From the human T2T-CHM13v2.0 reference genome, Homo sapiens: a stretch of DNA of 64,000 bases. Every line of letters starts with the position of its first letter. The stretch's first letter is position 1. A model generated the notes under the pieces. It was given only the letters and a program-made list of their open reading frames with translations, was not told the origin of the DNA and did not search any database. Of this stretch, positions 13,251-17,985 are shown piece by piece. Made by a program: the position numbers and the translations under genes. The DNA is taken from the NCBI RefSeq assembly GCF_009914755.1, contig NC_060929.1; one strand, 5' to 3'.

Positions 13251-14632
13251 ATAATGTGACTTCCAGAATCTGTCTGTCATACTCCATATTCTAACAGGCT
13301 ACTAGATTGTATGATCGATAACTAGTCAGCAGCTTAGTTGTATCTGGCCTTTTTACAGCTGTAGTTAGATTTAGCCTACTACCCGTATTTTAGGAGAATT
13401 ATTAAGACCTTCCCTCTAACAGGAATGGAATCTCAGGACTCTTACTCTGATATGATTTTTTTCTACTATGGAAGATTTCACTTTGATTTTTAATCCACTG
13501 CCAGATATTTGGGTGTGTGTATATTGTTCACGCTCCACTCCTGTCCCTCTTTTTAAGTTGCTCAAATATTTTGTTGTTACTGCAGTTCCCTGTTCTTGGC
13601 CTTTAGCAGGCCGTTGCCTGACACTCAGGATAAGCCACTCTCGTTTGGTGCTACGTCTCAGCTCTCCTGCCCTGCCCTGTGGTTTGGGCTGTTGCCTTAT
13701 ATCTGAGAAGTCCACTGCACATTCTAGAGAGCTATTTTGTCTTTACTAACAGGTTCTCAGCTATTGACATGCTGTCTGTATTTACTCAAGGAAGAATATC
13801 AGAGTTACTGTTGGTAATTAGAAGGAGGTTCACTTGGTAACTAGGAATCCTCAAGGTTCTAAGTCATCACTTAGCCTATGCATGGCCATTACAAGTTTCA
13901 TAAAACTTCATCTGGTTTCTTTTTCCCTTGTGCATTCAGGACTCTGTCCATTATGCTCCCAAAATGAAAATAGCAAAGAGACTCTTATCTCCTATAAAGG
14001 GGCATTCTTTTTCTAGAATTTACTTTACTTAAATTTGTAAATGTTTAGTTCTGTGAAAGGAAGGAGATAGCTCTGATTTGGTAACCTATATTGTAGGGAA
14101 AAGAAAGAGACACCAGACTGTTACTGTGTCTATGTAGAAAGGTAAGACATAAGAGACTCCATTTTGAAAAAGACCTGTACTTTAAATAATTGCTTTGCTG
14201 AGATGTTGTTAATTTGTAGCTTTGCCCCAGCCACTTTGACCCAACCTGGAGCTCACAAAAACATGTGTTGTATGAACTCAAGGTTTAAGGGATCTAGGGC
14301 TGTGCAGGACGTGCCTTGTTAACAAAATGTTTACAAGCAGTATACTTGGTAAAAGTCATCGCCACTCTCTAGTCTCAATAAACCAGGGGCACAATAGACT
14401 GCGGAAAGCCGCAGGGACCTCTGCCCTTGAAAATGGGGTATTGGCCAAGGTTTCTCCCCATGTGATAGTCTGAAATATGGCCTCATGGGATGAGAAAGAC
14501 CTGACCGTCCCCCAGTCCGGCACCTGTAAAGGGTCTGTGCCGAGGTGGGTTAGTAAAAGAGGAAAGCCTCTTGCAGTTGAGATAGAGGAAGGCCACTGTC
14601 TCCTGCCTGCCCCTGGGAAGTGAATGTCTCGG

Positions 14633-14639
14633 TATAAAA
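14633..14639 (+). promoter_or_regulatory. LTR5 TATA-like box
   Basis: gtctcggTATAAAAcccg at the position expected in HML-2 U3. Confidence 0.7.
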
Positions 14640-14925
14640 CCCGAGTGTACATTTGTTCAATTCTGAGATCAGAGAAAAACCACCCTATGGTGGGAGGTGA
14701 GACATGTTTGCAGCATTGCTGCTTTGTTATTGTTTACTCCACTGAGATGTTTGGGTGGAGAGAAGCATAAATCTGGCTTACATGCCCGTCCAGTCATAGT
14801 TCCTTCCCTTGAACTTAGTTATGATGTAGATTCTTTTGCTCACATGTTTGTTGCTGACCTTCTCCTTATTATCACCCTGCCCTCTTACTACATTCCTTTT
14901 TGCTGAAATAATGAAGATAATAATC

Positions 14926-14931
14926 AATAAA
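14926..14931 (+). terminator. LTR5 poly(A) signal
   Basis: aatcAATAAAaactgaggg in the R region. Confidence 0.75.
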
Positions 14932-15100
14932 AACTGAGGGATCTCAGAGACCAGTGCCAGTGCAGGTCCTTGGTATGCAGCCCCTGGGCCCACTGTTGTT
15001 TCTCTATACTTTTTCTCTGTGTCTTCTTTCTTTTCTCAGTCTCTCATCCCACCCGACTAGAAATACCCACAGGTGTGGAGGGGCAGGCCACCCCTTCATC

Positions 15101-15176
15101 TGGTGCCCAATGTGGGGCTCGAACCCACAACCCTGGGATGAAGAGTCCCATGCTCTACCGACTGAGGTAGTCGGGC
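15101..15176 (-). tRNA. Full-length tRNA-Lys(CUU) copy including CCA, fused to the LTR5 at the PBS (pseudogene/primer copy)
   Basis: Reverse complement gcccgactacctcagtcggtagagcatgggactCTTcatcccagggttgtgggttcgagccccacattgggcaCCA, 76 nt; 6 differences from human tRNA-Lys-CTT (TGGGA/TCCCA anticodon-stem isodecoder) as recalled; anticodon at 15141-15143. Confidence 0.95.
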
Positions 15177-17985
15177 TTGATTTCATGGTTATAGTGTAAT
15201 TGATGGTCATATGAGTTACTAAATACTAACTAAAACCAAAATATTTTTAATAAACAGTCAATTTTACTTTGTTTGCAAAGAAAAGTATCCAATATATATT
15301 TTTTTTAAAATTCTGTTTGCCCATTGTAATACTGTCCATCATATGTAAAATGCTTGTGTTTAGATGTCAAAGTGTCTTCTTGAAATATGCATTATTACCT
15401 TCAAAACTGTAAATATATATCATTTAAGTTCTTACCTTGTATAGTCAGTTCAACCTTGAAAAATATTTCTTTCTATATTTTTTCTAAACCATTGTAGACT
15501 TTTGATAAATCTGGAATAAGATATTAATTGACTATTACTAGAATTGTCTAAATGCTAAATCAATTAATTCATATATTTATAACAAACTTTTTGTAAAGAA
15601 AAAGTTTAACATTTTCACAATGTTAGAAAAGAATGAAGTGAATAAAGAAGATAAATATTAAGCTTTGTAGCATATATATGCCCTTTTAAAATATAAGCAT
15701 TTATATTTTCATCAACTGGTTAAAATTAATAAAAGAACCTGAAGTTTTCTATTTTATATCTAGTTTTAACTTCTTTACATTCATTTGTCTTTTTATGAAG
15801 AAACTTTGAGTTGGTATTTATCTGTGAAGTACATGCATTTGTTTTAGGATGACATAAAGTATGAAATCACTGAGAAAGTTGTGAAGGCAAAGTATTGCGT
15901 CTTAAGGTAATCTTTTGCATTGAATAATTTTCCTTAATACAAATGAAATTTAAAAGTTCTGAGAGAGGATAAAAATTGTAAAATTCGAGTGTGTGTATTT
16001 TTAATTCAATTATTTATTTTTCTTCATTACGATCCAAATGTACAGAAAAGTTAAAAGAATAATAACAAATACACACACATCCTTCACACAAATGAATAAA
16101 TGGTTAAAACCTTGCCAAACTTGTTTCACTGGTGTATATCTTTCCTTCTGGCATATCACTGCAGACATCAGAACCTCACACTCCAAAATACTTCACCATC
16201 CACCTCTCAGAGGTAAAGGGTATTAGCTCCCATGAAAATACAACCAAATTACCATGAATTGCCTACAAAAGTAAACAGTGGTGCAATGATATAATCAAGC
16301 AAAATATCTATTCTCAAATTTCATAGTTGGCTGCACAATTTCCTTTACCTTTTAATTTTTTAATCCATTTTCATTCCTTGCGTTTTTCTGTTATAGGTCT
16401 TTATTTAGTCTTCCCCAATCTAAATAATTTCCATTACTTCTCTGTGTTCTTCATAACATTAAAGGCAAAGAGTCCAGGCCAGTTACCTTGAAGAGCATCT
16501 TAGAGTGTCTTGTTTTGGGAATTAAATTTTCTTTTTTTCTATATTCTGGTCAATAATTTCTGCAAAGATACTGCATTGCTGATGTTGCTTAATTCCTGCT
16601 GTACAGTATTCATGTCAGGCTGCCCATATTGGTGATGGCAAATTTGAGCACTGAGTTAAGGAAGAGACAGATTACATTATTATGAATATATTTTTCAATT
16701 TGTAGTGAAGAAACAAAATATTGGATTATTCTTTGAGACCATGTAAATAACTTGTTCCTCAACAACCATTCACATAACTTAGCATTTCTTGATATTCTTT
16801 GCTTGAACTAATAATTAAATTGCGTTTAAAATATGATGATTTTCAAAAATGCCATCATTTGTTGTGTAAAAATACACTGGTTTAATAAAAATTAACTGGT
16901 TTATTACTGCAAAGAACAAACTTTTCTCACTTATTTTTTGTATCTCTTCTCCCGGATTCAAGTAAATGTTTATTTAATTACACAATTTCAATTCATTACT
17001 GATTTATCTTTTTATTCTCCAATTGTTCTCACCATGATCAATGGGAACTTTTTCAATTTAGTCTTATATCCTATTTTTTGGAATGTTATTGAAATATGAA
17101 AGATGTACAGAAAAGTACACAAATAATTGTATTTATACATTTTCACAAAGAAGGCAAATGCTTTTATCTGTTAATCAGATTAATAAAAATAAGTTTAAAA
17201 AACTATAGCAATTCTCTTCATGTTCCCTCCTAATTACAATTTTCCTGCTGGAGAGGGAGGGTTCCTGATTTTTAAGTTTTCTGGGGTGAACTGAAGAAGC
17301 CACCATATCTCACAGTCCTAGCAATCATTCTTAACATAATAGACAAGTGAAATAATCAAATGATTCTCTAAAACGTTTGCTTCAGAAGTAATTATTCATA
17401 ATGCCACTACATGTCCATAGTTGCGGTTATCTTACTTCTCACTGGCTGTAACTAACATGAAGTCTAAAGATACATGCAAATAAATTACTAAATATCATGT
17501 CTAAGGATCTATTTCTGTGGCTACTCCTGGACCATAGGCTGAGCCCCAGCCAGGTCCTATCCAAAAGTAGAAAAGAAGTTAGATATGTCAAAACATAGAG
17601 GTTAATGTGAGGATATAATATACATTAATGGAAAAAAGAAATGCGAATAATAGACACAAGGTGATTGAAGATGCCATTTCTGGGAGTATCAGAGAAAAGT
17701 TGGAGGTGGTAATTAATAACTTCTACCTGCACGAAGGGCAATTTATGTGGCAAACATTTGAGGAAAGCAAACAAACAGGATGGAGCAAGTCTTTTCTCTT
17801 CCTTGATTCCTTCCTGTGACTCCTTTCTTAATTATGAAACTCCTTTCTCAATTATAAAGTCAGCTGGTATAAAGAAAAAGGTAATTTTCAGAGAACAAAA
17901 CATAGCGTCAAAGAGTAGCTTAATGACTCTGATTTCTAACATTGTGGATTAGATTTCTCAAGCATTGAACATTAATATGCTTATA

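What the first reader, a model, noticed from the sequence alone, without database searches (positions are those of the whole stretch)
15101..15176. Mismatches in the captured tRNA fall on modified-base positions: possible RT misincorporation footprint
Seen, against tRNA-Lys-CTT as recalled: six differences. C48T, G66A and G73A are CpG transitions (ordinary decay). The three non-CpG changes are G6A (15171), G10C (15167) and A37C (15140). Established: mammalian cytosolic tRNA-Lys carries m2G10 and t6A37; m2G6 is known in Lys tRNAs, but I am less sure for the CUU isoacceptor. Inference: these are errors made while copying a mature, modified tRNA, a DNA record of ancient tRNA modification that favours an RNA template. 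G10C also damages the Pol III A-box and D-stem, while the B-box (gttcgagcc) is intact.
Basis: partly seen in the sequence, partly recalled or inferred. Interest (0 to 1): 0.8.

Follow-up and report, generated by a model that had tools for sequence, protein, structure and literature searches.

The report
Retroviral copy of a whole primer tRNA
An ancient retrovirus's copying enzyme ran on through its whole lysine tRNA primer and the product became fixed in our DNA; the three "suspicious" mismatches in this copy look like ordinary decay, though related copies do carry a mark of tRNA methylation at another position.

Summary
Window 15101-15176 (-) is a 73-nt tRNA-Lys(CTT) copy plus an encoded CCA. 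It differs from the nearest real human gene at exactly G6A, G10C, A37C, C48T, G66A and G73A, and the last three are CpG transitions. It is not a tRNA gene. It lies antisense to, and 2 nt beyond, a complete ~1-kb HERV-K-type LTR, which is the anatomy of plus-strand strong-stop DNA that read through the whole primer tRNA.

The reverse-transcriptase (RT) footprint reading of 6/10/37 is not borne out. The number of non-CpG changes (3) fits the LTR's own clock (about 1.5 expected, P 0.18). Cited tRNA-seq work reports m2G and t6A as RT-silent. Eleven independent sister fusions change G10 in 0 of 7, A37 in 0 of 10 and G6 in 1 of 4. A decayed gene-type Lys-CTT copy also carries C10. All three changes do fall on modified positions (nominal P 0.006, post hoc), so the idea is not excluded.

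Position 58, the m1A stop, does carry a footprint, but not here. It is changed in 4 of 12 fusions (T, T, C, G) and reads T in 5 of 6 other RNA-derived tRNA copies, against 0 of 10 gene-type pseudogenes. Ape orthologues, the decisive test, could not be examined.

The parts
14092..15098 (+). Complete HERV-K-type LTR, 1007 bp, from the TG start of U3 to the CA end of U5
   Evidence: 39 relatives elsewhere in the genome align at 91-94% identity over query positions 1-1007 (or from 3-5), out of 1499 first-look candidates of which 40 were scored; 5.4-7.0% pairwise distance to the six nearest. The family name could not be verified because no repeat library is available.
15099..15100 (+). 2-nt spacer (TC) between the LTR and the primer-binding site
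   Evidence: The same spacer stands in the sister fusions L026, L027, L028 and L033 (printout).
15101..15118 (+). 18-nt primer-binding site, the complement of tRNA positions 59-76 including CCA
15119..15119 (-). tRNA position 58 (A), the normal m1A58 stop of plus-strand strong-stop synthesis; read through here without change
   Evidence: The role of m1A58 comes from PMC8599865 and PMC13191261 (passages).
15104..15176 (-). 73-nt body of the tRNA-Lys(CTT) copy, annotated TRK-CTT9-1
   Evidence: One search gives 45.7 bits, against 65.4 and 65.1 bits for real genes.
15101..15103 (-). Encoded CCA tail, which real tRNA genes lack
   Evidence: All real Lys-CTT genes printed have other letters here.
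15171..15171 (-). G6A, a non-CpG transition at the m2G6 position
   Evidence: Also present in the old sister L037. m2G6 is listed for mammalian tRNALys(CUU) in PMC8599901 (passage).
15167..15167 (-). G10C, a transversion at the m2G10 position that breaks the 10-25 pair and the A-box G10
   Evidence: The same C10 occurs in the gene-type copy L014.
15140..15140 (-). A37C, a transversion at the t6A37 position
   Evidence: Unique among the 11 fusions that can be scored there.
15129..15129 (-). C48T, a CpG transition
15111..15111 (-). G66A, a CpG transition that breaks the 7-66 pair
   Evidence: The same change is in 5 of the 12 independent fusions (ours, L028, L032, L037, L039).
15104..15104 (-). 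G73A, a CpG transition at the discriminator base
15115..15125 (-). B-box region (tRNA positions 52-62), unchanged

Best explanation
The locus is a germline-fixed by-product of retroviral reverse transcription. [quoted passage not shown] The RT did not halt at A58, probably because that primer molecule lacked m1A58 (inferred). [quoted passage not shown] It is not a working tRNA gene. Its six differences from the source tRNA are best read as roughly 20-35 million years of ordinary decay (a rough age inferred from the branch length and a recalled rate): three CpG transitions and three other substitutions. They are not RT misincorporations at m2G6, m2G10 and t6A37.
For: Anatomy (shown):
- The CCA is encoded, and the tRNA is antisense to and continuous with the primer-binding site, 2 nt after a full-length LTR.
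- The flank beyond the tRNA matches none of the retroviral parts of the sister loci.
- No flanking repeat is in register.

Clock:
- The LTR terminal branch is 0.038 substitutions per site.
- There are 26 private substitutions in 998 columns, 24 of them non-CpG and 12 transversions.
- This predicts 1.47 non-CpG changes in the tRNA against 3 seen (P 0.18), and 0.88 transversions against 2 seen (P 0.22).
- CpG decay in the LTR is 8 of 16 sites (strict set) or 20 of 30 (loose set), against 3 of 6 in the tRNA.

Sister fusions:
- G10 is changed in 0 of 7, A37 in 0 of 10 and G6 in 1 of 4.
- Across the sisters, modified positions are changed in 8 of 143 cells (5.6%) and unmodified ones in 29 of 590 (4.9%).
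- A37 is also kept in 3 of 3 RNA-derived Lys-TTT copies.

Chemistry (papers, passages only):
- m2G gave no signature and t6A is called silent (PMC11417395).
- No sequencing method detects m2G (PMC8599901).
- Copying to the tRNA 5' end is the product seen with unmodified tRNA (PMC13191261).

Not a gene: 45.7 bits against 65 for real genes, two broken stem pairs, C37, an encoded CCA, and a first run of four or more T about 170 nt downstream.
Against: - All three non-CpG changes fall on positions that carry modifications (m2G6 and m2G10 documented in passages, t6A37 recalled). The nominal P is 0.006, which neutral decay does not predict.
- Two of the three are transversions.
- G6A recurs in one sister (L037), and G6A is the direction expected for a G·T mispair.
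- The silence of m2G and t6A was shown for group II intron RT, not for a betaretroviral RT. PMC11417395 itself cites older reports of mild interference by m2G.
- The sister copies only bound the per-site error rate loosely (0 of 7 and 0 of 10).
- The insertion mechanism and the hypomodified-primer idea are inferences.
Confidence: 0.6

Rival explanations
1. One reading: at least some of G6A, G10C and A37C were written at the moment of copying, when the viral RT misread m2G6, m2G10 and t6A37 of a fully modified primer. On this view the locus records the modification state of an ancient tRNA molecule.
For: - 3 of 3 non-CpG changes lie on modified positions, nominal P 0.006.
- m2G6 and m2G10 are documented for this tRNA (PMC8599901 and PMC10415138, passages).
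- RT footprints demonstrably exist in this class of copies at position 58.
- G6A recurs in L037.
Against: - No recurrence at G10 (0 of 7 sisters) or at A37 (0 of 10, plus 0 of 3 Lys-TTT copies, whose ms2t6A37 is, as I recall, the bulkier modification).
- m2G and t6A are reported RT-silent (PMC11417395, PMC8599901).
- The strongest misreading site, A58, is unchanged in this very molecule.
- G10C would need a G opposite G.
- The count of changes needs no extra source.
- Full-length copying is the in-vitro hallmark of an unmodified tRNA (PMC13191261).
Confidence: 0.2
2. One or more of the differences were already in the primer: the tRNA came from a variant Lys-CTT gene, for example one with C10.
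For: The decayed gene-type copy L014 (C15:74.25 Mb) has no CCA and its own T-run terminator. It has the same anticodon-stem type as the window's copy and also carries C10 and A66.
Against: - The chance that one of the 20 non-CpG changes in the five decayed gene-type copies matches one of the three in site and base is about 0.28.
- L014 keeps G6 and A37.
- No intact human gene has any of the three changes.
- C10 breaks the D stem, so such a tRNA would be a poor primer or a poor tRNA.
Confidence: 0.12
3. It is a genuine, if divergent, tRNA-Lys gene, as annotated in RefSeq (TRK-CTT9-1), that merely lies next to a solo LTR.
For: tRNAscan-SE, ARAGORN and Rfam all call it (hub annotation). The B box is intact.
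Against: - The CCA is encoded, and the 3' end is the LTR's primer-binding site to the base.
- Eleven other loci show the same junction.
- Two stem pairs are broken, position 37 is C, and the score is 20 bits below real genes.
- There is no nearby terminator.
Confidence: 0.02

Closest known systems
Plus-strand strong-stop DNA and its read-through products (HIV-1 / tRNALys3 work: PMC8599865; review PMC13191261; passages read)
   Same: An LTR copy followed by a copy of the primer tRNA. When m1A58 is absent, synthesis runs past position 58, and with unmodified tRNA it runs to the 5' end (the review's 'P1' product). The window holds exactly that product.
   Different: The published products are in-vitro or cell-culture intermediates, and PMC8599865 states that such cDNA 'cannot be integrated'. 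Here the product is fixed in the germline, comes from a betaretrovirus-like ERV primed by tRNA-Lys(CUU), and shows no integrase-type duplication.
Cloned circular murine retroviral DNA with a tRNA sequence between the LTRs
   Same: Primer tRNA copied beyond the 18 nt and retained next to an LTR.
   Different: That was an unintegrated circle from an infected cell, not a chromosomal, inherited insertion.
L1-mediated tRNA retropseudogenes, including 'tailless' ones (PMC5322556, passages)
   Same: Copies of tRNAs made through RNA. Such copies also turned up here: His with CCA and poly(A) at L105 and L107, and 3'-truncated Lys-TTT at L094 and L095.
   Different: Those stand alone, have 8-35-nt duplications, and are tailed or 3'-truncated. 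The window's copy is complete with CCA, is welded antisense to an LTR at the primer-binding site, and has no duplication.
RT misincorporation signatures used in tRNA sequencing (m1A read as A-to-T: PMC11019740; m2G and t6A silent: PMC11417395; passages)
   Same: Position 58 in sister copies shows the A-to-T signature.
   Different: The three positions changed in the window are ones for which those papers report no signature.
Genuine human tRNA-Lys-CTT genes (L002-L004, L006-L011)
   Same: 67 of 73 bases, the anticodon and the B box.
   Different: Real genes have no encoded CCA, have their own terminators, and score 65 bits in Rfam against 45.7 here.

Membership tests
Over-extended plus-strand strong-stop DNA (primer-tRNA read-through product) | A complete LTR, from the first U3 base to the last U5 base | tested here: met
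   relatives align over 1-1007 of 1007..
Over-extended plus-strand strong-stop DNA (primer-tRNA read-through product) | An 18-nt primer-binding site, complementary to the tRNA 3' end including the post-transcriptional CCA, 2 nt after the LTR | tested here: met
Over-extended plus-strand strong-stop DNA (primer-tRNA read-through product) | Complementarity continues past position 58, antisense to the LTR | tested here: met
   It continues to tRNA position 1.
Over-extended plus-strand strong-stop DNA (primer-tRNA read-through product) | No proviral interior follows | tested here: met
   the 1.4 kb beyond the tRNA has no match to any sister locus; no RNA family apart from a weak chance hit.
Integrase-mediated retroviral insertion | A 4-6-bp target-site duplication directly flanking the element | tested here: not met
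   the only shared word is a 6-mer that lies 12 nt from the LTR start on the left and 1 nt from the tRNA end on the right; no longer repeat.
Functional cytosolic tRNA-Lys(CUU) gene | An intact cloverleaf and A37 | tested here: not met
   The 10-25 and 7-66 pairs are non-canonical. Position 37 is C. Score 45.7 against 65 bits.
Functional cytosolic tRNA-Lys(CUU) gene | No encoded CCA, and a T-run terminator shortly downstream | tested here: not met
RT misincorporation footprint of a modified base | The changed position is modified in the source tRNA | tested here: met
   m2G6 is listed for mammalian tRNALys(CUU) (PMC8599901). tRNA-Lys, printed as 'CCU', is used as the m2G6+10 example (PMC10415138). 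t6A37 is recalled only.
RT misincorporation footprint of a modified base | That modification makes reverse transcriptases misincorporate | tested here: inconclusive
   Passages report no signature for m2G and silence for t6A with a group II intron RT (PMC11417395, PMC8599901). No data were seen for a betaretroviral RT.
RT misincorporation footprint of a modified base | The same position is changed recurrently in independent copies, more often than other positions | tested here: not met
   Counts including the window's copy: G10 in 1 of 8, A37 in 1 of 11 scorable, G6 in 2 of 5. Only A58 stands out, at 4 of 12.
RT misincorporation footprint of a modified base | The change was present from the moment of insertion, so all orthologues share it | not testable with these tools
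   No primate genome other than the window's own is held.
L1-mediated tRNA retropseudogene | A stand-alone copy with a poly(A) tail or 3' truncation and 8-35-nt duplications | tested here: not met
   Criteria taken from PMC5322556 (passages).

The most novel reading that the evidence does not exclude
The three non-CpG changes were all written by the viral RT on a single primer molecule, at m2G6, m2G10 and t6A37. That would make this locus a single-molecule readout of the modification state of a tRNA that existed tens of millions of years ago. It would belong to a wider genomic fossil record of tRNA modification, whose clearest layer is A58 read as T in LTR-tRNA fusions and in L1-made tRNA copies.
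Probability: 0.1. Interest if true: 0.75.

Novelty: new variant of a known kind. Interest (0 to 1): 0.45.

Why it matters
For this locus, a RefSeq "tRNA gene" is really a retroviral by-product and should not be counted in the Lys-CTT gene family.

For the class, at least 12 independent insertions show that strong-stop DNA which overran its primer could reach the germline. PMC8599865 describes that product as one that 'cannot be integrated'. Some of these products went on to copy 28S rRNA or gag RNA.

The copies form a natural experiment on primer-tRNA methylation. One third of them are changed at the m1A58 position, and RNA-derived copies of other tRNAs read T there, while gene-type pseudogenes never do. 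If this holds in a full census, old genomes carry a datable record of m1A58 on primer tRNAs and of how different reverse transcriptases read it.

Tried and rejected
- Earlier findings of the scan were not open.
- A 30-letter stretch of the window with up to 3 mismatches found only 3 places, because the window's copy has decayed CpGs. A CpG-tolerant motif replaced it.
- A shorter 26-letter motif, meant to catch short read-throughs, returned 31 places. Eleven of the 12 new places are ordinary proviral leaders of another HERV-K family, whose complementarity to the tRNA runs 8 nt beyond the primer-binding site. They are not fusions.
- A long or short target-site duplication at the window's element was sought and not found.
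- L1-made chimera was rejected. The tRNA is antisense to the LTR, is joined at the primer-binding site, and has no poly(A).
- DNA recombination between a primer-binding site and a tRNA gene was rejected. Twelve loci share the junction, and eight of them stop inside the tRNA.
- An APOBEC-type origin of G6A was considered. The context on the deaminated strand, read by eye, is GC, not CC or TC, so it was dropped.
- Searches with tRNA-His, tRNA-Pro and tRNA-Phe genes showed no clear LTR read-through fusions. No Pro hit was fetched.
- The weak mir-2542 hit at 15989-16078 (22.8 bits against a gathering score of 60) is chance.
- Nine literature searches found no paper describing germline LTR-tRNA fusions or A58 changes in tRNA retrocopies. 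Subscription journals and supplements were not searched.
- The LTR's family name could not be checked.

Full report
**Observation**

ARAGORN finds one tRNA in the window, tRNA-Lys(ctt) at 15101-15176 on the minus strand. Rfam places the 73-nt body at 15104-15176 with 45.7 bits. I took the reference from the window's own genome rather than from memory. A search with the tRNA found 21 places, among them the real Lys-CTT genes. The closest isodecoder, at L002 and L003, differs from the window's copy at six positions: G6A, G10C, A37C, C48T, G66A and G73A. The script classes C48T, G66A and G73A as CpG transitions and the other three as non-CpG. The B-box stretch is unchanged. Rfam flags the 10-25 and 7-66 pairs as non-canonical.

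**What the thing is**

The 73 nt are followed by CCA, which no real gene encodes; all genes printed have other letters there. Read on the plus strand, the order is as follows:
- a complete 1007-bp LTR (14092-15098);
- two bases;
- 18 bases complementary to tRNA positions 59-76;
- without a break, the complement of the rest of the tRNA down to position 1;
- AT-rich DNA with no similarity to the retroviral parts of the related loci.

The LTR is full length. 39 relatives align over essentially all 1007 bases at 91-94% identity (40 of 1499 candidates scored). This is the exact composition expected of plus-strand strong-stop DNA that did not stop at position 58. The RNA origin therefore rests on the CCA and the junction, not on the mismatches. 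The RefSeq label "tRNA gene" is misleading. The copy scores 20 bits below real genes (65.4 and 65.1 bits), has C at 37, and its first run of four or more T lies about 170 nt downstream.

**Is the amount of change unusual?**

The adjoining LTR gives a clock of the same age. Against its six nearest relatives (fetched) it differs by 5.4-7.0%. It has 26 private substitutions in 998 ungapped columns, of which 24 are non-CpG and 12 are transversions. Its terminal branch in a maximum-likelihood tree is 0.038. That predicts 1.47 non-CpG changes in the 61 non-CpG tRNA positions, where 3 are seen (P 0.18). It predicts 0.88 transversions, where 2 are seen (P 0.22). Of the CpGs inferred for the LTR, 8 of 16 (strict set) or 20 of 30 (loose set) have decayed in this copy, against 3 of 6 in the tRNA. 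Nothing beyond ordinary decay is needed to explain six differences.

**Is the placement unusual?**

Papers confirm m2G6 for mammalian tRNALys(CUU) (PMC8599901, passage). They also use a tRNA-Lys, printed "CCU", as the example carrying both m2G6 and m2G10 (PMC10415138, passage). t6A37 and the rest of the map (16, 20, 27, 39, 46, 47, 48, 49, 54, 55, 58) are recalled. With that map, 12 of 61 non-CpG positions are modified. Three hits out of three has a hypergeometric P of 0.006. It is post hoc and rests on a partly recalled map.

A CpG-tolerant motif with up to 3 mismatches found 22 places, against 0 for the reversed control. Ten are gene-type and 12 bear CCA, and those 12 represent 11 independent events because two are a tandem pair. 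A shorter motif added one more, L086. That makes 12 independent copies counting the window's. The sequence next to the CCA end of each sister is as follows:
- in five sisters (L026, L027, L028, L033, L039), an LTR that BLAST aligns to ours at 74-77% identity, which indicates a different family;
- in three (L032, L037, L043), a different end sequence shared among them;
- in three (L030, L046, L086), sequence I could not classify.

The differences from the nearest real isodecoder are tabulated. Counts in the sisters alone are:

| Position | Changed in sisters |
|---|---|
| G10 | 0 of 7 copies that reach it |
| A37 | 0 of 10 (L086 has an indel at 35-37 and was set aside) |
| G6 | 1 of 4 (L037, the most decayed copy, also G to A) |

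Across all sisters, modified positions are changed in 8 of 143 cells (5.6%) and unmodified ones in 29 of 590 (4.9%). A37 is also kept in the three RNA-derived Lys-TTT copies seen (L094, L095, L101). That tRNA's ms2t6A37 is named as a stop site in PMC13191261 (passage). So the three positions are not recurrently hit.

**Chemistry, from passages read**

- A tRNA-seq study saw no signature at known m2G sites and calls t6A silent, while citing older reports of mild interference (PMC11417395).
- PMC8599901 states that no sequencing method detects m2G.
- Both statements concern other reverse transcriptases, so they weaken the claim rather than kill it.
- The 2026 review PMC13191261 lists the strong-stop products for tRNALys3. 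Copying proceeds to the 5' end "when the tRNA is unmodified", and otherwise stops before m1A58, at pseudouridine 55, at m5U54 or at ms2t6A37.

A full-length copy with A58 read correctly, as here, therefore suggests a hypomodified primer. That runs against the premise of a fully modified template. This step is inference.

**A variant source gene**

None of the intact genes has A6, C10 or C37. The decayed gene-type copy L014, which has no CCA, its own T-run, and the same anticodon-stem type, does carry C10. One such match among the 20 non-CpG changes of the five decayed gene-type copies is expected by chance with probability about 0.28. This is a possibility, not a demonstration.

**Where a footprint does show**

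Position 58 is changed in 4 of the 12 fusions: to T in L033 and L046, to C in L039 and to G in L086. It is the most-hit site. The copies carry 40 non-CpG substitutions in all, 16 of them transversions. I shuffled each copy's substitutions over the positions it covers. Site 58 reaches 4 hits in 0.14% of shuffles, and some site reaches 4 in 8.5%. For transversions alone the figures are 0.12% and 7.6%. The shuffle assumes equal mutability of sites. A-to-T is the signature of m1A with retroviral-type enzymes (PMC11019740, passages).

Among 14 small loci I chose from the imperfect hits of Lys-TTT, Phe and His searches (9 of 37, 2 of 28 and 3 of 23 listed hits; no Pro hit was fetched), the results at position 58 were:
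- The three CCA-bearing copies (L101, L105, L107) all read T. L107 has an adjacent 1-nt deletion, so its alignment is less sure.
- Two of the three 3'-truncated copies (L094, L095) read T. L102 keeps A.
- Five copies without CCA (L096-L100) all keep A.
- Three copies I could not class (L103, L104, L106) keep A and were left out of the test below.
- The five decayed gene-type Lys-CTT copies all keep A.

RNA-derived copies are thus changed in 9 of 18 and gene-type copies in 0 of 10 (Fisher P 0.007). For LTR fusions alone, 4 of 12 against 0 of 10 gives P 0.07.

**How such products arose and entered the genome**

The sisters show what the enzyme did at or near the tRNA's 5' end.
- In L046 the tRNA is joined to 28S rRNA. 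Rfam gives 162 bits, and the 59 nt next to the tRNA are 98% identical to rDNA. The junction lies where 28S and the tRNA share 11 of 12 bases, which is a template switch by microhomology.
- In L039 the tRNA is followed by gag read backwards (Gag_p10 and Gag_p24 matches).
- In L027 the copy jumps back into U5. In L028/L029 it jumps into the LTR interior and forms a 459-bp tandem unit.
- Copies end at tRNA position 1-2 (five copies) or 7-15 (seven copies), and none ends between 16 and 57.
- L033 is flanked by a 55-bp direct repeat and L030 by one of about 62 bp.
- The window's element has none. The only shared 6-mer is out of register.

None of this looks like integrase. Capture at a chromosome break is my inference.

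**Comparison with what is known**

Read-through of the primer tRNA is textbook for in-vitro and cell-culture systems (PMC8599865, PMC13191261; a 1986 circle clone is recalled). PMC8599865 states that such cDNA "cannot be integrated". tRNA retropseudogenes made by L1 are known, and in PMC5322556 the word stem "modif" occurs 0 times. In nine searches of the open-access library I found no description of germline LTR-tRNA fusions or of position-58 changes in tRNA retrocopies. Subscription journals, supplements and repeat-database notes were not covered. I rate the locus a new variant of a known kind.

**What stays open**

- No other primate genome was available, so whether the three changes date from the insertion cannot be told.
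- The LTR family name is unverified.
- The census of other tRNAs was a small, hand-picked sample.
- The permutation and Fisher figures are indicative only.

Noticed in passing
L046 (G000:C19:38.12 Mb), locus 1217-1535: An LTR-tRNA fusion whose tRNA 5' end is joined directly to a sense fragment of 28S rRNA. Rfam LSU gives 162 bits, and the 59 nt next to the tRNA are 98% identical to the rDNA arrays. At the junction 28S and tRNA-Lys share 11 of 12 bases. This is a template switch of the RT from the primer tRNA to ribosomal RNA.
   Followed up: yes
L039 (G000:C16:2.95 Mb), locus 1-1535: In this fusion the tRNA is preceded, on the tRNA-sense strand, by HERV-K gag from matrix to the first zinc knuckle (Pfam Gag_p10 at 1.8e-19, Gag_p24 at 1.2e-7). 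After the tRNA the RT therefore copied viral RNA, giving an inverted LTR-tRNA-gag arrangement. A58 reads C.
   Followed up: yes
L033 (C19:55.01 Mb) and L030 (C1:54.84 Mb): These LTR+tRNA elements are flanked by unusually long direct repeats of 55 bp (96% identical) and about 62 bp (95%). That is far longer than integrase-type duplications.
   Followed up: partly
L028/L029 (C1:39.372 Mb): The tRNA complement (positions 76 to 11) is joined to the interior of its own LTR, and the 459-bp unit is repeated in tandem at least three times.
   Followed up: partly
L082-L085, L087-L093 (11 loci on C1, C5, C6, C7, C10, C11, C17, C19, C20, C24): These are ordinary proviral leaders of another HERV-K family. 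[quoted passage not shown] It recalls the extended complementarity that PMC8599865 describes for lentiviruses.
   Followed up: partly
L094, L095, L101 (Lys-TTT); L105, L107 (His): These RNA-derived copies of other tRNAs (CCA-bearing, poly(A)-tailed or 3'-truncated) read T at position 58. Five Lys-TTT-like copies without CCA (L096-L100) keep A. L107 also has C in place of G37.
   Followed up: partly
L014 (G000:C15:74.25 Mb): A decayed gene-type Lys-CTT copy with its own T-run terminator. It carries the same G10C as the window's copy, and ARAGORN no longer calls it.
   Followed up: partly
BLAST lists: Many hits cover only tRNA positions 1 to 36-38, or 1-44 (Lys-CTT, His, Pro, Phe). They fit the 3'-truncated 'tailless retropseudogenes' of PMC5322556. 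None was fetched.
   Followed up: no
All 12 fusions: Read-through ends either at tRNA position 1-2 (five copies) or at 7-15 (seven copies), and never between 16 and 57. Two copies end at position 7, just before the m2G6 position. The junctions are uncertain by a few bases.
   Followed up: no
window 15989-16078 (-): A weak Rfam match to mir-2542 (22.8 bits, gathering score 60, E 0.29) in AT-rich DNA. Taken as chance.
   Followed up: no
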